From assembly GCA_947302535.1 (NCBI GenBank), contig CAMYVX010000004.1:221-64220 (forward strand): a DNA stretch of 64,000 nt. Reading direction: 5' to 3'. Origin of the DNA: an uncultured Bacillales bacterium (GTDB lineage: Bacteria > Bacillota_I > Bacilli_A > RFN20 > CAG-826). The notes under the pieces are model-generated. The model was not told where the DNA came from, ran no database searches, and saw only the letters and a program-made list of their open reading frames with translations. A program made the position numbers and the translations under genes. Below are positions 5,690-64,000 of the stretch, in pieces (the first letter of the stretch is position 1; each line of letters starts with the position of its first letter).

Positions 5690-7012
5690 ATGTTTGAAAC
5701 AATTGTGGCGCTTGCTACCCCGCCAATGAAGGGTGCCTTAGGAATAGTACGTCTTTCAGGAGATGACTGTTTTGAAGTTGTCAGTAAAGTCTTTTCTAAG
5801 GACATAAGGAAGATAGATAAAAGAACTCTTTTGGTTGGCACTATAAGAGCGCAAGGAGAAAAGATTGATGATGTTGTTTTAGCGGCTTATAAAGGACCTA
5901 AGAGTTTTACTGGAGAAGATTCTGTTGAAATCATTTGCCACGGCTCTATGCTTGTTGCTAATCAGATTATAGAAGCATTGTTACAGAGTGGAGCTCGTAT
6001 GGCCACAAACGGCGAATTCTCTTCTCGTGCTTTTTTACATCAGAAGATCGACTTGGTTCAAGCAGAATCAATTAACGATTTAATTAACTCCACCACTAAC
6101 GAATCAAAAAAGATTTCTATGATGTCCTTAGATGGTAAAGTTAGTTCGGTTGTAAGACCAATCAAAAAATCTTTAGCGGATCTTTTGTCTTTAATTGAGG
6201 TTAACATTGATTATCCTGAATATGAAGACATAGAAGTCGCAAATAAAAACAAAATTGTCAAAGATGTAGCCGATATTAATGGAAAAATCGTCAAAATGAT
6301 TGGCGATGCTGAAAAAGCAAGAATAATCAAAGAAGGGTTAAAAATCGCTATTATTGGTAAACCTAATGTTGGTAAATCTTCTTTACTAAACGCTCTTCTT
6401 GGACAGGATAAAGCCATCGTTACAGATATTGCGGGTACTACTCGTGATATTGTTGAGGGCGATTTCTTATTAAAAGGTATTGTTGTTCATCTTCTTGATA
6501 CTGCTGGAATACGTGAATCAAATAATGTTGTTGAATCTTTTGGTATTGAGAAGAGTAAGAAAGCCATTGAAGAAGCAGATTTAATTATTGTTGTTTTAGA
6601 TGGTTCTCGTGAATTTTCTAAAGAGGACCAAGACATCATTGATTTATGTGGAGAGAAAAAGACCATTATTGTAAATAATAAAGCAGATATTATTAAGAAA
6701 AAAAATGCACTAAATATATCCGCGTTACACAAAGATATAGAACCTCTATTGAATGAGATGTATAAAGCTATTGGTTTAGAAGAAGATTCTTTCTTTAACC
6801 CAGCATTAAACAATGCACGTCAAATTGGTTTGCTTAAACAAGCCAAGGAAGCATTAGATAAAGCCAAAGAAGATGCTTTAAATGATCTTCCTGTGGAATT
6901 AATTGCTGTGTCTTTAAATATCGCTTATTCTGCGATTTTAGAAATTCTTGGTGAATCCAATCAAGTTGATTTTTCTAAAGAAATATTCTCACGCTTCTGC
7001 GTTGGTAAATAA
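5690..7012 (+). CDS. mnmE: tRNA modification GTPase MnmE (TrmE)
   Basis: N-terminus MFETIVALATPPMKGALGIVRLSG is the MnmE signature. G-domain motifs GKPNVGKSS and DTAG are present, and the protein ends in C-terminal CVGK. The ORF track starts at a GTG at 5669 that lies inside the terminator hairpin; the ATG at 5690 is more plausible. Confidence 0.93.
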   Translation: MFETIVALATPPMKGALGIVRLSGDDCFEVVSKVFSKDIRKIDKRTLLVGTIRAQGEKIDDVVLAAYKGPKSFTGEDSVEIICHGSMLVANQIIEALLQSGARMATNGEFSSRAFLHQKIDLVQAESINDLINSTTNESKKISMMSLDGKVSSVVRPIKKSLADLLSLIEVNIDYPEYEDIEVANKNKIVKDVADINGKIVKMIGDAEKARIIKEGLKIAIIGKPNVGKSSLLNALLGQDKAIVTDIAGTTRDIVEGDFLLKGIVVHLLDTAGIRESNNVVESFGIEKSKKAIEEADLIIVVLDGSREFSKEDQDIIDLCGEKKTIIVNNKADIIKKKNALNISALHKDIEPLLNEMYKAIGLEEDSFFNPALNNARQIGLLKQAKEALDKAKEDALNDLPVELIAVSLNIAYSAILEILGESNQVDFSKEIFSRFCVGK

Positions 7013-10246: not shown

Positions 10247-11191
10247 ATGGTTGCTATTGGTATTGATATTGGCGGTACTTCAATTAAAGGAGCAGCGGTC
10301 ACACCTGATGGAAAAGTTCTTGATGTCTTTTCTCTACCAGTAGATAAAAACGATAATCAAGATCAAACAATTGATAAACTCATTGTTGTCTTAAAGAATT
10401 ATTTAGCTGAACATCATTACGATAAGAGCAATGTTCTTGGAATTGGTTTAGGCATTCCAGGAAGTATCGATTCTCCAAAAGGTATTGTTTCTTATTCCAA
10501 CAACTTAAAATGGGAAGACCTCCATATTGTTGAAAAAATCGAAAAAGAACTCGGAATTAGGGCAAAAATTACTAATGATGCGAATGCTGCAACATTAGGT
10601 GAAGCCAAATTTGGAGCTGGAAAAGAATATAAGAATTTGTTAATGGTTACCCTTGGAACCGGAGTAGGCGGAGGCATCGTAATTGATGGTAAACTCTACG
10701 AAGGTAACGAAGGTAAAGGAGCAGAAATTGGTCATTCTGTCATTGTGTTAGATGGTAGACCATGTACATGCGGTAGAAAAGGCTGCTTAGAAGCTTATGC
10801 CTCTGCAACCGGATTAATCTATGACACAAAGATTGCTATGGAAGAGCACAAAGATTCTTTAATGTGGAAAGTGGCAGAAAAACTTGGAAAAGTTGATGGT
10901 CGTGTGGCTTTTGAAGCCATGAGACAAAATGATAAATACGCTAAAGATGTAGTTAACAACTACATAAAGTATTTAGGCGAAGGATTGATGAACTTCTTTA
11001 ATGTCCTTAGACCTGACGCGGTTATTTTGTCTGGTGGTATTGCAAACGAAGGCGATTACTTAGTTACTCTTCTTGATAAATATTGTCGTGACCGTAATTT
11101 TGGATATAACTGCACCCCTGAAGTTAAGATTCTTATTTCTAAACTTGGTTACGATTCAGGCAAGATTGGCGCAGCTGCATTGTTCTTCTAA
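10247..11191 (+). CDS. glcK: ROK family glucokinase
   Basis: N-terminal IGIDIGGT ATPase motif, ANDANAA motif, and the ROK zinc motif CTCGRKGCLE. Confidence 0.9.
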   Translation: MVAIGIDIGGTSIKGAAVTPDGKVLDVFSLPVDKNDNQDQTIDKLIVVLKNYLAEHHYDKSNVLGIGLGIPGSIDSPKGIVSYSNNLKWEDLHIVEKIEKELGIRAKITNDANAATLGEAKFGAGKEYKNLLMVTLGTGVGGGIVIDGKLYEGNEGKGAEIGHSVIVLDGRPCTCGRKGCLEAYASATGLIYDTKIAMEEHKDSLMWKVAEKLGKVDGRVAFEAMRQNDKYAKDVVNNYIKYLGEGLMNFFNVLRPDAVILSGGIANEGDYLVTLLDKYCRDRNFGYNCTPEVKILISKLGYDSGKIGAAALFF

Positions 11192-50825: not shown

Positions 50826-50901
50826 GGGTCTGTAGCTCACCTGGGAGAGCGCATCGTTCGCAACGATGAGGCAGCCGGTTCGATCCCGGTCAGATCCACC
50901 A
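50826..50901 (+). tRNA. tRNA-Ala with anticodon CGC
   Basis: Manual fold of the 76-nt sequence GGGTCTG TA GCTC ACCTGGGA GAGC G CATCG TTCGCAA CGATG AGGCA GCCGG TTCGATC CCGGT CAGATCC A CCA. It has the G3:U70 wobble pair (alanine identity element), discriminator A73 and an encoded CCA. The anticodon loop is TTCGCAA, reading anticodon CGC. Confidence 0.85.
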
Positions 50902-58938: not shown

Positions 58939-59026
58939 AGTCACCCTTAAACATTTCTACATTTACACTTTTTCAAAAATAACATAATCAAAGTAAAAGA
59001 ATTGGTCGAGTGAAATATCTCGGTTT

Positions 59027-59114
59027 TTTCTTGTTCGCGAATGAATTTAAACACGACATAATACGGATAGAGACTTTTGTGCAAAACAAGATGGATGAGT
59101 TTGTGTAACTACAG
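59027..59114 (+). repeat. Repeat B, copy 2
   Basis: TTTTCTTGTTCGCGAATGAATTTAAACACGACATAATACGGATAGAGACTTTTGTGCAAAACAAGATGGATGAGTTTGTGTAACTACA. It follows the GNAT gene. Confidence 0.8.
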
Positions 59115-59168: not shown

Positions 59169-59762
59169 TTACTCTTTGTAGAGAAAATCAATCTTAAAGA
59201 GGTTGGTCTTTAAGTCCGCCATAAGCTGTTTAATCTCGGCTTTATAGGATTGATTTTTGTGATGGATTAAATATGTTAATGCAGAGACAAAACCACCATA
59301 GATGAATGATGCGGTGACTGGGATTGAATACTTAAATGGTCTAATCTTATCGATTTCCACTAATAGTTCACTGATACCATCTTCACAGACTCTGGTTATG
59401 ATGTTGATGAGTTCAAAACTGTAGTTCTTTTCTAGTGAACGGATATATTCAATATTTGTTTCAATATATTCGATAACCTTACCCAATATACTGATGAGGT
59501 ATTCAGCAATATCATCGATTGATGTTGTTTGTTTCTTTGGAACCTGATTCATGATGCTATCTTTGATTTCGTTAATCGCATCATCTAATAGGAGATACTT
59601 ATCTTCATAATACTTATAGAATGTCATCCTATTAATCAGCGCGTGCTCGCATATATCTTTAACTGTAATCTTCTCTAATGGACGATCCTTTAATAATGCG
59701 AGAATTGATTCTCTTAATACCTTTCTAGTCTTTTGAATTCTTAAGTCTTCTTTGTACTGCAT
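59169..59762 (-). CDS. TetR/AcrR family transcriptional regulator
   Basis: N-terminal helix-turn-helix (ITVKDICEHALINRMTFYKYY), 197 aa. Divergent from the MMPL transporter gene. Confidence 0.85.
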   Translation of the reverse strand: MQYKEDLRIQKTRKVLRESILALLKDRPLEKITVKDICEHALINRMTFYKYYEDKYLLLDDAINEIKDSIMNQVPKKQTTSIDDIAEYLISILGKVIEYIETNIEYIRSLEKNYSFELINIITRVCEDGISELLVEIDKIRPFKYSIPVTASFIYGGFVSALTYLIHHKNQSYKAEIKQLMADLKTNLFKIDFLYKE

Positions 59763-59946: not shown

Positions 59947-62900
59947 ATGAAAAAAATTTGTTCATTCATTGTAAGGTTTAGATATTGGCTCTTAGGCTTA
60001 TTCGCTATCTTAGTTGGTTCATCTTGCATTCTCATGCAACACGTGAATATCAACTATAACTTAATGCAATATCTAGACAAGGGTTCATCATCCACAGTGG
60101 CGTTAACTGTCATGGAAGATGAATTCGGAAGTGTCGGTCAATGTCAAGTATTAGTGACCCACCTCACCTATCAAGAAGCAGAAGAAGCCAAAGACAAGAT
60201 TGAAAGTGTCGAAGGTGTTGCTTCTGTTGTCTTCGCTTCCAGTGAAGCAGATTCTGATTATTACAATCCTGTGACAGGTGACGCTTTATACAAAGTGTTC
60301 TTAACCACAAGTAACTACGATAAAGCGACATATAAAACACTAGATAGGATTAGAGCGGAATTAAAAGATTACACAATCTCATTAAATGGTGGTTCAGTTG
60401 AATCTGAATTCTTAACTAAGGCACTCGCTAGAGATATGACGATTATTCTAACAATTGTTGTAGTGGTGGTTTTGGGTATTTTATTACTCACATCATCTTC
60501 ATATGTTGAACCACTTATCTTCTTATTTGTCGCTGGTGGTGCGATTCTCATCAACCTCGGTACAAACATCCTATTGAACGCAATTCCATATATCGGTAAT
60601 TCCATGTCATTCATCACGAAGAGCATTGCCGCGGTTATGCAATTAGCGTTATCCATGGACTATGCGATTATTCTCCTTCATACGTATAAAGAAGAAAAAG
60701 AACATTACGATGACAATAAAGAAGCGATGAAAGCCGCTTTAAGAAGAGCGTTCGCTCCTGTATCCTCATCATCCATTACCACAATCGCTGGTTTAGTGGC
60801 CTTGATGTTCATGAGCTTCTCCATCGGATTTGACGTTGGTCTAGTTCTCGCAAAAGGTATTTTACTCAGCTTATTATGCGTGTTCTTATTCATGCCTGCA
60901 TTATTACTTACATTTGATAAATTACTCGCAAAAACCTCGCAAAAACCAATCGATCGTATCATTATTGGCAAAATCAAAGCCCATCACTTAAAGAGAAAAC
61001 AACAAGGTAAGAAAGTCCATTCAATGGCTTCCTTCCAAAAGAAAACAAGAATCGTTGTTCCTCTTTTAGCGGTCGCCTTATTCGGTGTAGCTGCGGTGTT
61101 CAATTTCACCTCAACTTATAGCTTCACCCTTCAAGCATCAACGGATGCGAATTCCACGATTAACGTTGATGATAAAAAGATTACAGATGAATTCGGTACA
61201 CAAAATACCTTAGTCGTCTTAATTGAAAAGAAGGATAGACAAAAATCCGAAATCAAAGTGGAAGAAGAGGAAATCATCAACTACTTAAAGAACTATGAAT
61301 ACAATGGTGAAAAGGTGATTAACTCCGTTCAAGGTTATAGCACATACGGTGTATATAATGATTTAACCGCTGAACAATTCGCTGGATTATATCTCGATGC
61401 GGATATGTATAACGCAAACGTCAGAGGCGTTACAGTGTTATATCAATATCTCCAAGCCAGTGGATTAGCCTATCTCGATAGTGAAAATAACTTAAGAGCA
61501 AACGTTTATAACGTCGTTGCATTCGCTAAAGAGAATGAAGGTGCGAAAAAGATTACCGAACAATCTCAAGCCTTAATGGATAAAGTTGCTTCAGCCTATT
61601 ATGTGGAATTAACCAAAGAACAATTCGCTGCTGCGAACAATATCAACGCCACAATCGTTGAAAACATCTACTCCACAATGTCAGTGGAAAAAGCGACAAC
61701 ATATGATGTCTTAAAGTTCGTCCATGATAATAATTATGCTGTTGCAGCATTCACCAATATTCAAAACAACATCAATTCTTCTTATGAAGATTTGAAGACC
61801 AATGGTGTATTTAACGCTGATGGTTCAGTCAATGAAACCGTTGTCGGTGGTATGAAAGCATATTGTGATGCTTATGAAGCTGGTCAAGTTGATACAACAG
61901 ATCCTGCAAATCAACAAAAATATGCAACCTATAAGAAGATTGTTATTGAATTCAATAAAGAACAATTAATGGCTCAATACCCATTCATCACTGAAGATAC
62001 CGCTTCTGCCTTATTACAAGGTAAAGAAACAGTTCCTAACTATTTAGTGGTTCAAGCTTCTTCTCTTAACAATATCCCTGCTCAATATGGACAAGGTATG
62101 CAAGGGGTGATTAACGCTAAATATGCGGAAATCCCTGTTAAAGATGAAGTCATCACCAAAGAAGACGCCAAGATGAACTATGGTGTTGATGACCAAACTC
62201 TTGCTGCACTATATCAAAGTGGTGATATCACCAATGGTGTCTTATTCAAATTCTTAAGCGATAACAAATACTACACCAACGAACAATATCAAGGTCAAAT
62301 GCAAGCTAGATTCGATGCCAGCTATGAAGCATTCGCAAACTTTGAATCTGATAACTACATCAGAGTCATCTTCAACTTCAATATGCCAACATCTAGCAAA
62401 GACTCCTTCAAAGCAATTAACGAAATTAGCAATCACTTATATGGCACATATGATGATGTTAAATTGGTTTCGGAAACATTCGTGTATTCACAAATCAAAC
62501 AAGTCTTCAACCGTGACGTTGTCATCGTTAACATCATCTCATTCGTCGCTATCTTATTAATCATCGCTGTCACATTCAAATCAGCGTTCACCCCAGTATT
62601 ATTAACATTATTAATCCAAGGTGCTATCTGGTTCACAATGGGTATCTCCACAGTGTTTGGAAAAGAAATCTTCTTCATCTGTTACATCGTGGTTATGTGT
62701 GTCCAAATGGGTGCGACAATTGACTATGGTATCTTATTAACTAATAACTATATTCAAAATAGAAAGAAATATAGTAGAAAAGACTCTATGGCTTTAGCGA
62801 TGAACTCATCCATCGCCACAATCTTGACCTCTGGTTCAATTCTCGTCTTAGCAACATTAATCATTGGGTTAGTTTCTAAGGTTTCCATCGTTTCAGACTT

Positions 62901-63114
62901 AGGTATGCTCTTATCAAGAGGCTGCTTAATCTCCTTATTGATGATTATCTTCGTCTTACCACAGTGCTTAATTATCTGTGATAAGGTGATTGAAAAAACA
63001 TCAGTTAAGACCAAGTTTGCTGATCCAAATAATGATGTCTTAGATGAAGACCTCATTGAAATTGATGATAATGGTGAAACCAAACAAATCGAATCTCATG
63101 AAGAGAGTAAATAA
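59947..63114 (+). CDS. MMPL-family (RND superfamily) membrane transporter
   Basis: 1055 aa with two TM bundles, each followed by a large extracytoplasmic domain, as in MMPL/YdfJ. Paired with the TetR regulator. Confidence 0.85.
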   Translation: MKKICSFIVRFRYWLLGLFAILVGSSCILMQHVNINYNLMQYLDKGSSSTVALTVMEDEFGSVGQCQVLVTHLTYQEAEEAKDKIESVEGVASVVFASSEADSDYYNPVTGDALYKVFLTTSNYDKATYKTLDRIRAELKDYTISLNGGSVESEFLTKALARDMTIILTIVVVVVLGILLLTSSSYVEPLIFLFVAGGAILINLGTNILLNAIPYIGNSMSFITKSIAAVMQLALSMDYAIILLHTYKEEKEHYDDNKEAMKAALRRAFAPVSSSSITTIAGLVALMFMSFSIGFDVGLVLAKGILLSLLCVFLFMPALLLTFDKLLAKTSQKPIDRIIIGKIKAHHLKRKQQGKKVHSMASFQKKTRIVVPLLAVALFGVAAVFNFTSTYSFTLQASTDANSTINVDDKKITDEFGTQNTLVVLIEKKDRQKSEIKVEEEEIINYLKNYEYNGEKVINSVQGYSTYGVYNDLTAEQFAGLYLDADMYNANVRGVTVLYQYLQASGLAYLDSENNLRANVYNVVAFAKENEGAKKITEQSQALMDKVASAYYVELTKEQFAAANNINATIVENIYSTMSVEKATTYDVLKFVHDNNYAVAAFTNIQNNINSSYEDLKTNGVFNADGSVNETVVGGMKAYCDAYEAGQVDTTDPANQQKYATYKKIVIEFNKEQLMAQYPFITEDTASALLQGKETVPNYLVVQASSLNNIPAQYGQGMQGVINAKYAEIPVKDEVITKEDAKMNYGVDDQTLAALYQSGDITNGVLFKFLSDNKYYTNEQYQGQMQARFDASYEAFANFESDNYIRVIFNFNMPTSSKDSFKAINEISNHLYGTYDDVKLVSETFVYSQIKQVFNRDVVIVNIISFVAILLIIAVTFKSAFTPVLLTLLIQGAIWFTMGISTVFGKEIFFICYIVVMCVQMGATIDYGILLTNNYIQNRKKYSRKDSMALAMNSSIATILTSGSILVLATLIIGLVSKVSIVSDLGMLLSRGCLISLLMIIFVLPQCLIICDKVIEKTSVKTKFADPNNDVLDEDLIEIDDNGETKQIESHEESK

Positions 63115-63125
63115 CAACATTCATT

Positions 63126-63150
63126 AGCCACCTCACTGGTGGCTTTTCTT
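63126..63150 (+). terminator. Intrinsic terminator after the MMPL gene; its T-run is the start of repeat B3
   Basis: AGCCACC-TCACT-GGTGGCT hairpin followed by TTTTCTTG. Confidence 0.7.
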
Positions 63151-63231
63151 GTTCGCGAATGATTATAAACACGACATAATACGGATAGAGACTTTTGTGC
63201 AATTCTTGATAAGTGAGTCTGTGTAACTACA
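63144..63231 (+). repeat. Repeat B, copy 3
   Basis: TTTTCTTGTTCGCGAATGATTATAAACACGACATAATACGGATAGAGACTTTTGTGCAATTCTTGATAAGTGAGTCTGTGTAACTACA. Confidence 0.8.
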
Positions 63232-63325
63232 AGTTAGAAGGTCGCTAGTAATGGAGACTTTTTGTGTGGCACTTTTGTGATAGTTATTTGATATAATGAA
63301 ATCACTTATTCAAGGAGAAAAAGTT

Positions 63326-63613
63326 GTGAAAAAAGAATTACTAAAAGGTCTTAGCAATGAACAAATCGCTAAAATTGAGAAATGTAAAAACACAGACGAA
63401 ATATTAGCTTTAGCTAAATCTGAAGGCATTGAACTTACCGATGAACAATTAGAAGCTGTCAATGGCGGATGTGGTAAATCAAAAGAATGGTACGAAATTG
63501 ACAATATGCAATGTCCAGAATGTCTTAACAGCCACTGTATGGAAAAAGTCTCAGACGCATGGTATAGATGCAAGTACTGTAATAAAATTACAGTCAATAA
63601 AAATCTTCAATAA
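63326..63613 (+). CDS. Nif11-like leader, double-glycine, Cys-rich precursor peptide 1 (putative RiPP/bacteriocin precursor)
   Basis: Leader (V)KKELLKGLSNEQIAKIEKCKNTDEILALAKSEGIELTDEQLEAVNGG, then core CGKSKEWYEIDNMQCPECLNSHCMEKVSDAWYRCKYCNKITVNKNLQ with 6 Cys. Preferred start is GTG at 63326 with the RBS AAGGAG at 63313..63318; the track ORF starts at 63296. Confidence 0.7.
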   Translation: MKKELLKGLSNEQIAKIEKCKNTDEILALAKSEGIELTDEQLEAVNGGCGKSKEWYEIDNMQCPECLNSHCMEKVSDAWYRCKYCNKITVNKNLQ

Positions 63614-63630
63614 ACGATAAAGGATTTGTT

Positions 63631-63921
63631 TTGAACATGAAACAAGAATTATTGAAAGGTTTAACCAAAGAACAAATTGAAAAAATTAAAGCGTGTAAGA
63701 ATCAAGAAGAATTATTGGCGCTAGCCAGAGCTGAAGGAATCGAACTTACTGACGAACAACTCACCGCTATTAATGGTGGTGGTGCTTGTAGTGTTATTTC
63801 AGATATTGGAGATTATATCAATCCATATGATTGTCCAAGATGTGGCAGTAATAATATTAAAGACAAAGGCACCTATTATATCTGCCAAAGCTGTGGCTAC
63901 AAAATTGAAAATTACGATTAA
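63631..63921 (+). CDS. Nif11-like leader, double-glycine, Cys-rich precursor peptide 2 (paralogue)
   Basis: Leader MNMKQELLKGLTKEQIEKIKACKNQEELLALARAEGIELTDEQLTAINGGG, then core ACSVISDIGDYINPYDCPRCGSNNIKDKGTYYICQSCGYKIENYD, which has a zinc-ribbon-like CPRC…CQSC pattern. Confidence 0.7.
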   Translation: MNMKQELLKGLTKEQIEKIKACKNQEELLALARAEGIELTDEQLTAINGGGACSVISDIGDYINPYDCPRCGSNNIKDKGTYYICQSCGYKIENYD

Positions 63922-63934
63922 ACAAACGAGTATA

Positions 63935-63957
63935 ACCGAGCTTAGCTCGGTTTTTTC
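63935..63957 (+). terminator. Intrinsic terminator after precursor peptide 2
   Basis: ACCGAGC-TTA-GCTCGGT hairpin followed by TTTTTTCTTG. Confidence 0.7.
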
Positions 63958-64000
63958 TTGTCTGAGCCATCGTGCGAACGATGAGCGAGTTAAAACCCCC
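63953..64000 (+). repeat. Repeat B-like element (variant), truncated by the window end
   Basis: TTTTTTCTTGTCTGAGCCATCGTGCGAACGATGAGCGAG… Same TTTTCTTGT entry point as the other B copies, then an anticodon-arm-like CATCG-TGCGAA-CGATG resembling the tRNA-Ala anticodon arm. Confidence 0.55.

What the first reader, a model, noticed from the sequence alone, without database searches (positions are those of the whole stretch)
63296..64000. Two tandem Nif11-leader, double-glycine precursor peptides with Cys-rich zinc-ribbon-like cores, truncated by the window edge
Both peptides have the Nif11-like leader architecture (…EQI.KI..CKN.(D/E)E(I/L)LALA(K/R)(S/A)EGIELTDEQL.A(V/I)NGG) ending in a GG cleavage motif. 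From memory, this matches the cyanobacterial ProcA-type leaders (…VVAIAKAAGF.IT.EDL…GVAGG). Nif11-type leaders are characteristic of RiPP precursors (prochlorosin-type lanthipeptides, ranthipeptides and others) exported by peptidase-containing ABC transporters. Here the cores are about 45 aa with 5 to 6 Cys arranged as CxxC pairs (CPEC…CKYC and CPRC…CQSC). That looks like a zinc ribbon rather than a typical lanthipeptide or SCIFF core, which is an unusual combination. They lie downstream of a TetR plus MMPL transporter pair and between repeat-B elements, i.e. they appear to be a mobile cassette. Any maturation or export genes would lie beyond 64000.
Basis: partly seen in the sequence, partly recalled or inferred. 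Interest (0 to 1): 0.8.

Follow-up and report, generated by a model that had tools for sequence, protein, structure and literature searches.

The report
Exported zinc-ribbon miniprotein precursor genes
Two complete small genes at the window's end belong to a large, uncharacterised family from rumen bacteria: a conserved cleavable export leader is attached to a tiny, probably zinc-binding protein, and relatives keep these genes next to, and under the same promoter element as, a leader-cleaving ABC exporter.

Summary
The two genes are real and complete, not truncated: pepA 63326-63613 (95 aa, GTG start) and pepB 63637-63921 (94 aa). They form one unit between two terminator-like hairpins.

Each has a 48-aa helical leader ending in L(-12)..L(-7)..V/I(-4).GG. 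The 46-47-aa core starts with a Cys and contains a CPxC...CxxC module.

The Nif11 leader model (TIGR03798) is the top hit but stays below its cutoff: 20-22 bits against 32.3.

The family is large: 1,882 clusters at 50% identity, at least 74 core types, and up to 19 or more distinct cores per MAG. It comes from uncultured rumen Erysipelotrichaceae/Bacilli. Leaders are 68% identical between core types and cores 25%.

In eight MAG lineages, family genes adjoin an NHLP/Nif11-type peptidase ABC exporter. A shared operator (TGTGGCAC-N4-TGTGACA plus an extended -10) precedes the peptide genes and, in four of these loci, the exporter cluster. It occurs once in the window, before pepA.

A radical SAM/SPASM gene is present in six of those lineages but absent from a close relative.

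Best reading: PCAT-exported zinc-ribbon miniproteins, RiPP-like in build but probably not modified.

The window ends inside an IS200/IS605 element. The "mobile cassette" idea is not supported.

The parts
63126..63144 (+). Terminator-like hairpin ending the upstream MMPL gene. It marks the 5' boundary of the pepA-pepB unit.
   Evidence: 7-pair stem followed by a T-tract
63144..63231 (+). D1 intergenic repeat, second copy; the first is at 59026-59113. It starts right after the terminator T-tract ...TTGT and contains a degenerate half of the family promoter (GAGACTTTTGTGCAA..TTGATAAGTG). Probably a small inserted element, not part of the peptide genes.
   Evidence: also found in L001, L013, L014 and L035
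63265..63282 (+). Family-specific operator TGTGGCACTTTTGTGATA (consensus TTGTGGCAC(A/T)TTTGTGACAA). It is the only copy in the 64-kb window.
   Evidence: 1 match, 0.01 expected; present in 131 of 244 distinct upstream regions of family genes; 130 of 172 matches in 1.12 Mb lie within 130 nt upstream of a family gene
63289..63297 (+). Extended -10 element TGaTATAAT, 6 nt after the operator.
   Evidence: sequence; the same TG.TA..(A)T element follows the operator in 116 of 131 upstream regions. Inferred promoter; no transcript data.
63313..63317 (+). Ribosome-binding site AGGAG, 8 nt upstream of the GTG start of pepA
   Evidence: upstream consensus AAAGGAGAA across the family
63326..63613 (+). 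pepA precursor gene, 95 aa, GTG start. Leader is residues 1-48 (63326-63469) and ends in ..ELTDEQLEAVNGG. Core is 47 aa (63470-63610): CGKSKEWYEIDNMQCPECLNSHCMEKVSDAWYRCKYCNKITVNKNLQ, with 6 Cys.
   Evidence: The pepA type comprises about 52 clusters (at 90% identity) that are 68-97% identical to pepA. Within the type the core is 89% conserved and the leader 76%.
63637..63921 (+). pepB precursor gene, 94 aa, ATG start. Leader is residues 1-48 (63637-63780) and ends in ..ELTDEQLTAINGG. Core is 46 aa (63781-63918): GACSVISDIGDYINPYDCPRCGSNNIKDKGTYYICQSCGYKIENYD, with 5 Cys. It has no promoter of its own (23-nt gap), so it is probably co-transcribed with pepA.
63934..63952 (+). Terminator-like hairpin ending the pepA-pepB unit
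   Evidence: 8-pair stem with 5 G-C pairs, followed by a T-tract
63962..64000 (+). End of an IS200/IS605-family insertion sequence (CTGAGCCATCGTGCGAACGATGAGCGAGTTAAAACCCCC..., with a subterminal hairpin), inserted right after ...TTGT. It is unrelated to the peptides and explains why assemblies break here.
   Evidence: The same sequence occurs in 8 metagenome contigs, 7 of them within about 110 nt of a contig end. In L090 it continues into a 168-aa Y1_Tnp transposase (PF01797, E = 2e-39). Similarity to relatives stops at about 63956-63964.

Best explanation
pepA and pepB are precursors of exported, metal-binding miniproteins.

Proposed sequence of events:
1. They are transcribed together from a promoter that carries a family-specific operator (inferred).
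2. The 48-aa helical, acidic leader ends in a canonical double-glycine signal: L(-12), L(-7), V/I(-4), G(-2)G(-1).
3. A peptidase-containing ABC transporter of the NHLP/Nif11 export class is encoded elsewhere in the genome. Its C39 domain binds the leader and cleaves after GG, and the transporter pushes the 46-47-aa core across the membrane (inferred from relatives).
4. The released core starts with a Cys-Ser/Thr-rich stretch. It then folds as a four-Cys zinc ribbon (CPxCG, about 17 residues, CxxCG plus an aromatic residue) (predicted).

The genes are two of dozens of paralogues per genome. All share the leader, and they fall into many conserved core types, so the cell secretes a repertoire of different miniproteins through one exporter, as one regulon.

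In some lineages a radical SAM/SPASM enzyme in the exporter cluster may modify the Cys next to the cleavage site, or only a short one-Cys peptide encoded beside it. It is dispensable in at least one close relative.

The extracellular role (antagonism, signalling or surface function) is not established.
For: Shown by sequence and tools:
- Both ORFs are complete, with an RBS before pepA and terminators on either side.
- Across 262 distinct family peptides, L(-12) occurs in 254, L/I(-7) in 254 and V/I(-4) in 248. This matches the experimentally defined PCAT recognition code (PMC6959990).
- TIGR03798 is the top hit, and the cleavage motif matches the N11P motif of PMC2887384.
- Between core types, leaders are 68% identical and cores 25%.
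- The exporter cluster is a HipA_C-like protein, sometimes a radical SAM/SPASM enzyme, an HlyD-like fragment, a PCAT (TIGR03796, 838 bits), a second ABC protein (TIGR03797, 656 bits) and STAS. It lies next to family peptides in L009/10, L044, L051, L062, L070, L071 and L082.
- The PCAT has the C39 residues, in ...ECGAASL... and ...HFVVL....
- The same operator precedes the peptide genes. It also precedes the HipA-like gene (L044, L017, L022) and the HlyD-like/PCAT operon (L062). It occurs once in the window, before pepA.
- In RUG14536 the pepB orthologue (94% identical), a pepA orthologue, 11 other precursor genes in that array and the exporter lie within 22 kb. A homologue of the window's 908-aa ORF lies upstream.

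Zinc ribbon:
- Pfam Zn_Ribbon_TF scores 26.3 bits.
- The family profile matches the TFS4 zinc ribbon at E = 2.9e-5.
- AF2 cores have pLDDT about 80-84 with beta strands, and the GG region is disordered.
- The best Foldseek matches are zinc ribbons at 1.0-1.4 A over 28-31 residues.
- 243 of 247 long cores have two or more CxxC pairs. Of those 243, 92% have CPxC, about 80% have Gly after each knuckle and 94% have an aromatic residue after the second.
Against: - The window holds no exporter or maturase gene, and the rest of this genome could not be read.
- No member reaches the curated TIGR03798 cutoff.
- Foldseek E-values are not significant (at least 0.13) because the domain is tiny, and whole-model pLDDT is only 63-73.
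- Metal binding, cleavage and export are all untested.
- PCAT cargo is thought to travel unfolded (PMC6959990), so the zinc site would have to form outside the cell.
- No immunity-like genes are evident beside the peptide arrays. This weakens a bacteriocin role and leaves the function open.
- The invariant Cys next to the cleavage site is not explained by a four-Cys ribbon.
Confidence: 0.68

Rival explanations
1. They are true RiPPs. Before export, a radical SAM/SPASM maturase turns the core cysteines into thioether cross-links of the sactipeptide or ranthipeptide kind. On this reading the CxxC pairs are cross-link donors, not zinc ligands.
For: - A 465-aa radical SAM/SPASM gene sits inside the exporter cluster in L009/10, L044, L051, L070, L071 and L082, at 66-78% identity between lineages.
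- Its closest solved relative is the sactisynthase SkfB (E = 3.4e-11), followed by SuiB and PqqE.
- Its NCBIfam hits include the peptide maturases WgkB, DynA, PapB and StsB, all far below their cutoffs.
- The cores are Cys-rich, and Asp or Thr often lies 3-5 residues after the first Cys (CSVISD, CSNTD). This resembles ranthipeptide CxxxD/T motifs, which I recall from memory.
Against: - The radical SAM gene is absent from the otherwise intact cluster of RUG14536, a close relative of the window organism with 18 distinct zinc-ribbon cores. Only 166 bp separate the HipA-like and HlyD-like genes there.
- In three rSAM-bearing clusters (L044, L051, L082) the gene immediately upstream of the radical SAM gene is a short one-Cys peptide with its own leader subtype (DDVxDLxQLAKDEGVEL).
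- Conservation of Pro and Gly in CPxCG and CxxCG, and of the following aromatic residue, is a hallmark of a folded zinc knuckle. It is not needed for thioether donors.
- Within a type, the core is conserved like a folded domain (89% in the pepA type).
- No RRE/PqqD domain was detected in the enzyme by Pfam.
Confidence: 0.2
2. They are intracellular small zinc-ribbon proteins, for example nucleic-acid-binding regulators, with an N-terminal Nif11-like helical domain. On this reading the GG motif is incidental and they are never cleaved or exported.
For: - Zinc ribbons are typically cytoplasmic nucleic-acid- or protein-binding modules.
- AF2 predicts a four-helix N-terminal region.
- Leader-model hits are sub-threshold.
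- The window itself has no exporter.
Against: - The positions PCATs read (L-12, L-7, V/I-4) are near-invariant in 262 peptides.
- The segment around GG is predicted to be disordered.
- The same leader is fused to at least 74 unrelated core types, including short non-ribbon cores.
- Family genes are physically linked to, and share an operator with, an NHLP/Nif11-type PCAT cluster.
Confidence: 0.07
3. They are exported as in the best explanation, but the conserved Cys next to the cleavage site is a covalent attachment point (lipid, cell wall or an intermolecular disulfide). The miniproteins would then form a variable cell-surface coat rather than diffusible molecules.
For: - A Cys lies 1-5 residues after GG in 262 of 262 cores. 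It is followed by a Ser/Thr/Asp-rich linker of variable sequence and then the folded domain. This resembles the Cys(+1)-linker-domain layout of lipoproteins, which I know from general knowledge.
- The operator also precedes several lipoprotein or signal-peptide genes.
Against: - The leader has no hydrophobic h-region; the longest hydrophobic run is 5 residues. The classical Lgt/Lsp route therefore does not apply.
- No candidate transferase is conserved in the cluster.
- This is purely an analogy.
Confidence: 0.05

Closest known systems
Nif11-derived leader peptides (N11P, TIGR03798) with the NHLP/Nif11 export system (TIGR03794/03796/03797), as in prochlorosin ProcA precursors (Haft et al. 2010, PMC2887384)
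   Same: - A helical acidic leader ending in ELxDEQLEAVxGG.
- Large paralogous expansions, with a conserved leader and divergent cores.
- Precursors scattered far from the processing genes.
- Adjacency to a peptidase ABC transporter, a second ABC protein and an HlyD-like gene.
   Different: - The leader is shorter: 48 aa against about 69 in the model. All tested members score below the TIGR03798 cutoff.
- The hosts are rumen Erysipelotrichaceae/Bacilli and some Lachnospiraceae, not cyanobacteria or nitrogen fixers.
- No LanM or cyclodehydratase is present.
- The cores are 46-50-aa zinc-ribbon-like domains conserved within types, not short Cys/Ser/Thr-rich peptides.
- The HlyD-like partner is only a 127-aa fragment.
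PCAT1 and its 90-aa substrate CtA from Clostridium thermocellum (PMC6959990)
   Same: A PCAT processes and exports a small protein-sized cargo (66 aa for CtA, 46-47 aa here) after a double-glycine leader with L(-12), L(-7) and a specificity residue at -4. No modification enzyme is required.
   Different: - The CtA leader is 24 aa, not a 48-aa Nif11-like leader.
- CtA is a single substrate, not a family of dozens.
- CtA is not reported as Cys-rich or zinc-binding.
- Here there is a two-ABC NHLM-type system.
Class II (unmodified) double-glycine bacteriocins and pheromones of Gram-positive bacteria (TIGR01847-type leaders; Blp/Com/Pln regulons)
   Same: - GG leader cleavage coupled to ABC export.
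- Multiple peptide genes under one shared promoter element.
- A short pheromone-like peptide encoded beside the exporter.
   Different: - The leader is twice as long and Nif11-like.
- The cargo is a metal-knuckle miniprotein rather than an amphipathic or hydrophobic peptide.
- No histidine kinase/response regulator pair and no immunity genes were seen. A HipA_C-like protein and STAS proteins are present instead.
Sactipeptides and ranthipeptides (SkfA/SkfB; SCIFF/CteB; PapB substrates)
   Same: Cys-rich precursors, and a radical SAM/SPASM enzyme whose nearest solved relative is SkfB. That enzyme sits in the same cluster as the exporter in several lineages.
   Different: - The enzyme matches no curated maturase family (all NCBIfam hits are far below cutoff).
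- It is absent in a close relative.
- The core Cys pattern is that of a zinc ribbon.
- No thioether has been demonstrated.
Zinc-ribbon domains (TFIIB/TFS N-terminal ribbon, ribosomal L37ae/eL43, PhnA/YjdM N-terminus)
   Same: CPxCG...CxxCG knuckles about 17 residues apart, a predicted three-stranded sheet, and sequence and fold matches to these domains.
   Different: Those are intracellular parts of larger nucleic-acid machinery. Here the ribbon is a stand-alone cargo behind a secretion leader, with an extra conserved N-proximal Cys.

Membership tests
Nif11-like leader peptide family RiPP precursor (NCBIfam TIGR03798; Pfam PF07862 Nif11) | Score at or above the curated cutoff of the leader model (32.3 bits for TIGR03798; 23.8 bits for PF07862) | tested here: not met
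   - pepA scores 20.2 bits and pepB 21.6 bits on TIGR03798, and 15.5 and 20.6 bits on PF07862.
- 49 of 61 relatives hit TIGR03798 at E <= 0.01, but the best E-value is 2e-5 and the highest score listed is 24.7 bits.
- It is the top-ranked family throughout, so these are Nif11-like outliers rather than members by the curated rule.
- NCBI nevertheless names one pepA-type protein (MBQ2493791.1) this way.
Nif11-like leader peptide family RiPP precursor (N11P) | Gly-Gly cleavage motif of the form ELSDEELEAVAGG at the end of the leader | tested here: met
   pepA has ELTDEQLEAVNGG and pepB has ELTDEQLTAINGG. The motif is taken from PMC2887384, Table 3.
Nif11-like leader peptide family RiPP precursor (N11P) | Paralogous expansion with a conserved leader and variable core, and association with the TIGR03794/03796/03797 transport genes | tested here: met
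   - At least 19 distinct cores occur in one MAG.
- Leaders are 68% and cores 25% identical between types.
- A TIGR03796-like PCAT (838 bits against 853) and a TIGR03797-like ABC protein (656 bits against 709) adjoin family genes in eight MAG lineages.
- This was met in relatives. It could not be tested for the window's own genome.
RiPP in the strict sense (post-translationally modified core) | A modifying enzyme that acts on the core, and a modified product | tested here: inconclusive
   A radical SAM/SPASM gene is present in six or seven cluster lineages. It is absent from the RUG14536 cluster, and no maturase is in the window. The chemistry cannot be tested with these tools.
PCAT (double-glycine) secretion substrates | Leader consensus L(-12)xxxE(-8)L(-7)xxxxG(-2)G(-1) with a hydrophobic residue at -4 | tested here: met
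   L(-12), L(-7), V or I at -4 and GG are present in pepA and pepB. Glu is at -9 and Gln at -8. Frequencies are 254/262, 254/262 and 248/262. The consensus is from PMC6959990.
PCAT (double-glycine) secretion substrates | A cognate C39-peptidase ABC transporter in the same genome, and actual cleavage and export | not testable with these tools
   There is none in the 64-kb window. It is present near orthologues in RUG14536. The rest of the window genome is not available: contigs end at the IS.
Zinc ribbon fold | Two CxxC knuckles (typically CPxCG) on beta hairpins about 10-30 residues apart, with four Cys ligands | tested here: met
   Pfam Zn_Ribbon_TF scores 26.3 bits against a 29-bit cutoff, which is sub-threshold. 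The profile matches PDB TFS4 at E = 2.9e-5. AF2 strands have pLDDT about 80. Local superposition on zinc ribbons is 1.0-1.4 A.
Zinc ribbon fold | Actual binding of one Zn(II) by the four cysteines | not testable with these tools
   This needs metal analysis or spectroscopy of the purified core.
Sactipeptide / ranthipeptide precursors | A dedicated radical SAM/SPASM thioether synthase of a recognised family next to the precursor | tested here: not met
   There is no radical SAM gene in the window. The relatives' enzyme scores far below every curated maturase model, for example PapB 74 bits against 340 and StsB 75 against 625. It is absent in RUG14536.

The most novel reading that the evidence does not exclude
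Rumen Erysipelotrichaceae-like bacteria secrete a repertoire of dozens of stand-alone zinc-ribbon miniproteins. Secretion runs through one Nif11/NHLP-type peptidase ABC exporter, under a dedicated regulon that also includes a pheromone-like short peptide, a HipA-like protein and STAS proteins. This would be a previously unrecognised class of extracellular, metal-stabilised effectors: a new cargo class for PCATs and a new biological setting for the zinc-ribbon fold.
Probability: 0.4. Interest if true: 0.8.

Novelty: new variant of a known kind. Interest (0 to 1): 0.62.

Why it matters
Double-glycine and Nif11-type leaders with PCAT export are well known. The cargo here is not. It is a conserved, stand-alone zinc-ribbon-like domain, diversified into at least 74 types with dozens of copies per genome, in uncultured rumen bacteria.

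If the cores are exported and bind metal, three things follow:
- The zinc-ribbon fold would have an extracellular role.
- PCATs would gain a new class of natural protein cargo.
- A large set of small, stable, naturally diversified scaffolds would become available, all sharing one leader and one exporter. That is attractive for peptide engineering and for studying interactions between rumen microbes.

The shared operator gives a direct handle for finding the regulator and the conditions of expression. No curated model or paper I could find covers the family. Current annotation leaves most members unnamed.

Tried and rejected
- **Extending past 64000.** Exact-protein look-ups for pepB and pepA returned only short contigs of 701 and 5,190 bp. 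The longer one stops 12 nt beyond the window's last base, and the 50-200-kb contigs on record were not returned. A locus-specific 33-mer found nothing in the JGI metagenomes. A 25-mer from the last bases showed that the window's end is a multi-copy IS200/IS605 end.
- **Maturase or exporter in the window.** tblastn with the L009 radical SAM, PCAT, ABC2, HlyD-like, HipA-like and STAS proteins found nothing in the window.
- **Other family copies in the window.** None were found.
- **Rfam.** The only hit in the window is a tRNA. No known RNA overlaps the repeats or the leader region.
- **Mobile cassette idea.** Rejected, because the D1 copies bracket TetR-MMPL rather than the peptide genes. L035 has GNAT, a 147-aa ORF, D1, unrelated genes and then a peptide array, with no TetR or MMPL.
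- **Sigma-54 promoter reading of TGGCAC.** Rejected. The spacing gives TGAC where TTGC is required, and a proper extended -10 follows.
- **Classical lipoprotein signal.** Rejected, because the leader has no hydrophobic core.
- **Membership via the NCBI name.** The named protein itself scores worse than E = 0.001 with TIGR03798.
- **Literature.** Seven searches combined Nif11, rumen, Erysipelotrichaceae, zinc ribbon, double-glycine, SPASM and PCAT. None found a description of this family.
Full report
**1. What is in the sequence**

The last 700 bases of the window hold two complete + strand genes.

- pepA most likely starts at the GTG at 63326 and ends at 63613 (95 aa).
- An AGGAG lies 8 nt before the GTG, and the family's N-terminus is MKKELLKGL.
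- pepB runs from 63637 to 63921 (94 aa), 23 nt after pepA.
- Terminator-like hairpins lie at 63126-63144 (after the MMPL gene) and 63934-63952 (after pepB). Two were found against 0.4 expected in shuffles.

The two genes therefore form their own small unit. Neither is truncated.

**2. Anatomy of the peptides**

Both have a 48-residue leader:
- pepA: MKKELLKGLSNEQIAKIEKCKNTDEILALAKSEGIELTDEQLEAVNGG
- pepB: MKQELLKGLTKEQIEKIKACKNQEELLALARAEGIELTDEQLTAINGG

The cores are 47 and 46 residues:
- pepA core: CGKSKEWYEIDNMQCPECLNSHCMEKVSDAWYRCKYCNKITVNKNLQ (6 Cys)
- pepB core: GACSVISDIGDYINPYDCPRCGSNNIKDKGTYYICQSCGYKIENYD (5 Cys)

The two are 49% identical overall, nearly all of it in the leader.

**3. 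Leader family test**

- TIGR03798 (Nif11-like leader RiPP precursor) is the best NCBIfam hit for both. It scores 20.2 and 21.6 bits against a cutoff of 32.3.
- Pfam Nif11 gives 15.5 and 20.6 bits against 23.8. NHLP (TIGR03793) gives 16 bits against 50.9.
- Among 61 relatives, 49 hit TIGR03798 at E <= 0.01 and none reaches the cutoff.
- A profile comparison with a ProcA-type leader, written from memory, aligns IAKV...ELLALAK.EGIELTDEQL with IAKV...DVVAIAKAAGFSITTEDL (59% probability). This is a lead only.
- The cleavage-site motif ELTDEQLEAVNGG nearly equals the N11P motif ELSDEELEAVAGG published by Haft et al. (PMC2887384).
- It also fits the experimentally defined PCAT code L(-12)...L(-7)...x(-4)...GG (PMC6959990).
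- In 262 distinct family peptides, L(-12) is present in 254, L/I(-7) in 254 and V/I(-4) in 248.

The leader works like a Nif11/double-glycine leader. By the curated rule it is an outlier, not a member.

**4. The family**

- pepB has 564 and pepA 442 homologues in the 90%-clustered database.
- An exhaustive profile search finds 1,882 clusters at 50% identity with E <= 0.001, and 253 with E <= 1e-10.
- In reference genomes the family is confined to uncultured rumen Erysipelotrichaceae/Bacilli MAGs, with some Lachnospiraceae and Pseudobutyrivibrio. 271 stretches encode a relative, and 74 loci were fetched.
- Single MAGs hold at least 19 distinct cores, and up to 12 genes lie in one 20-kb locus.
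- The 269 distinct peptides in the fetched loci fall into 74 core types.
- Between types, leaders are 68% identical and cores 25%.
- Within the pepA type the core (89%) is better conserved than the leader (76%). Within the pepB type the values are 58% and 78%.

The picture is therefore many discrete, conserved miniprotein types behind one common leader, not random hypervariation. Public sources leave almost all members unnamed. JGI calls one 'bacteriocin-like protein', and NCBI calls one pepA-type protein 'Nif11-like leader peptide family natural product precursor'.

**5. The cores look like zinc ribbons**

- 243 of 247 long cores have at least two CxxC pairs.
- Of those 243, the first pair is C-P-x-C in 92% and is followed by Gly in 80%. 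The second is followed by Gly in 78% and by an aromatic residue within four positions in 94%.
- The spacer between the pairs has a median of 17 residues.
- pepB scores 26.3 bits on Pfam Zn_Ribbon_TF against a 29-bit cutoff.
- The family profile matches the zinc ribbon of archaeal TFS4 in the PDB at E = 2.9e-5.
- AlphaFold2 gives a four-helix leader and a disordered stretch around GG. The beta-structured core has pLDDT about 80-84. Whole-model pLDDT is 63 for pepB and 73 for pepA.
- Foldseek's best matches are zinc ribbons (TFS4, L37ae/eL43, PhnA, TFIIB). For pepB they superpose at 1.0-1.4 A over 28-31 residues. E-values are not significant for so small a domain.

Metal binding itself is untested.

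**6. Link to an exporter**

The window has no exporter or maturase. In relatives, a conserved cluster lies beside family genes, with these components:
- a 386-aa protein with weak HipA_C similarity;
- in most lineages, a 465-aa radical SAM/SPASM enzyme;
- a 127-aa HlyD-like fragment;
- a C39-peptidase ABC transporter (TIGR03796, 838 bits against 853);
- a second ABC protein (TIGR03797, 656 bits against 709);
- one or two STAS proteins.

It is seen in L009/L010, L044, L051, L062, L070, L071 and L082. TIGR03794, TIGR03796 and TIGR03797 are the NHLP/Nif11 export system defined by Haft et al.. The PCAT has the C39 catalytic motifs.

In RUG14536, a close relative, one 35-kb contig carries, in this order:
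- a homologue of the window's 908-aa ORF;
- the pepB orthologue (94% identical);
- twelve more precursor genes, including a pepA orthologue;
- the exporter cluster, about 15 kb downstream of the pepB orthologue.

**7. A shared operator**

- Nucleotide similarity between paralogues begins about 60-75 nt upstream of the start codons.
- The conserved element is TTGTGGCAC(A/T)TTTGTGACAA, then 6-8 nt, then TGATAAnAT.
- Its 8-mers are 30-50-fold enriched.
- A strict pattern occurs in 131 of 244 distinct upstream regions. Most of the rest are operon-internal genes.
- 130 of 172 matches in 1.12 Mb lie within 130 nt upstream of a family gene.
- Most of the remaining matches precede family genes that my pattern missed.
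- Others precede the HipA-like gene (L044, L017, L022), the HlyD-like/PCAT operon (L062), or signal-peptide and lipoprotein genes.
- In the window it occurs once, at 63265-63282 before pepA, against 0.01 expected.

This ties the scattered precursor genes and the exporter into one putative regulon. The regulator is unknown.

**8. Is it a RiPP?**

The only candidate maturase is the radical SAM/SPASM enzyme. Its nearest solved relative is the sactisynthase SkfB (E = 3.4e-11). It fits no curated maturase family.

Three observations argue that the zinc-ribbon peptides are not its obligatory substrates:
- The gene is missing from the otherwise intact RUG14536 cluster. Only 166 bp separate its neighbours, and that genome has 18 distinct zinc-ribbon cores.
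- In three clusters (L044, L051, L082) the gene immediately upstream of it encodes a short one-Cys peptide, for example ACSNTSTKERPKFES, with its own leader subtype.
- The Pro, Gly and aromatic conservation of the knuckles is what a folded metal site needs, not what thioether donors need.

One feature remains unexplained. Every core, including the short ones, has a Cys 1-5 residues after GG, followed by a Ser/Thr/Asp-rich stretch. This could be the radical SAM target, a fifth ligand or an attachment point.

**9. Surroundings and the 'cassette' idea**

- The 88-nt repeat D1 (59026-59113 and 63144-63231, 89% identical) brackets the TetR-MMPL pair, not the peptides.
- TetR-MMPL is absent next to orthologues in other MAGs.
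- L035 has the same GNAT gene (92% nucleotide identity), then a 147-aa ORF, a D1 copy and unrelated genes, and only then a peptide array.
- The last 39 bases of the window (63962-64000) are the end of an IS200/IS605-family element.
- The same sequence occurs in eight metagenome contigs, seven of them near a contig end.
- In L090 it continues into a Y1 transposase (PF01797, E = 2e-39).
- All copies sit right after a terminator T-tract ending in TTGT, and none of the other sites has family peptides.

This explains why assemblies stop here.

**10. Verdict**

These are Nif11-like, double-glycine precursors whose cognate machinery in relatives is an NHLP/Nif11-type PCAT system, and the cores are zinc-ribbon-like.

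The best-supported mechanism is leader-dependent cleavage and export of small metal-binding proteins. Radical SAM modification appears optional or directed at another peptide.

I found no curated model or paper that describes the family. I rate it a new variant of a known kind, of moderate to high interest.

Noticed in passing
window 63962-64000 (continues beyond the window); L090 7814-8460; L086-L093: The window ends inside the end of an IS200/IS605-family insertion sequence with a Y1 transposase (PF01797, E = 2e-39). In 9 of 9 sites the element sits immediately after an intrinsic-terminator T-tract ending in TTGT. Its multi-copy nature explains the contig breaks.
   Followed up: yes
window 59026-59113 and 63144-63231; L035 about 6390-6490; L001, L013, L014: D1 is a repeat of about 90-95 nt (TCGCGAATGA..AACACGACATAATACGGATAGAGAC..AACTACA). 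It also starts right after ...TTTTCTTGT, the same target context as the IS200 element. It may be a non-autonomous derivative or a decayed promoter copy. The two window copies bracket TetR-MMPL.
   Followed up: partly
window 63265-63297; upstream of family genes in L004-L085: Conserved operator TTGTGGCAC(A/T)TTTGTGACAA plus an extended -10, defining a putative regulon. The regulon covers precursor genes, the HipA-like/PCAT cluster and several signal-peptide or lipoprotein genes (for example L030 8992, L052 18668, L060, L020 3229). The regulator is unknown.
   Followed up: partly
L009 10436-10621; L044 about 6533; L051 about 9673; L082 about 2059; L062 about 10282-10509: Short-core family members with a single Cys and a basic tail (VCSSAEKKRKIES, ACSSDNNKDENGKRKIDS, CDNTKPKKKIIED) are encoded inside or near the exporter cluster. 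In L044, L051 and L082 they lie directly upstream of the radical SAM gene and have a distinct leader subtype. They could be a pheromone or the enzyme's true substrate. A third core class, acidic and ending in P(I/V)xNPF, appears among the database representatives.
   Followed up: partly
L009 12386-13546 and 19818-20111; L062 10583-11782 and 16714-17304: A 386-aa protein with weak HipA_C similarity (20.9 bits, sub-threshold) and one or two STAS (anti-sigma antagonist-like) proteins are conserved parts of the exporter cluster. Their role is unknown.
   Followed up: no
L062 11782-11948 (RUG14536) compared with L009 13576-14973: The radical SAM/SPASM gene present in six other lineages is cleanly absent from the RUG14536 cluster. 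The 166-bp gap there holds an operator copy instead.
   Followed up: yes
L003, L004, L009 flanks: Peptide arrays often lie among toxin-antitoxin and defence-type genes (AbiEii, HepT/MNT, ParE/PhD, RhuM) and beside paired Peptidase_S41 genes. This suggests variable genomic islands.
   Followed up: no
window 59169-59762 (-) and 59947-63114 (+): A TetR-family regulator and a 1,055-aa MMPL-family transporter are divergently arranged just upstream. The pair is not conserved next to family genes in other MAGs and is probably unrelated to the peptides.
   Followed up: partly
window 50826-50898: A single tRNA gene is the only Rfam match in the window.
   Followed up: no
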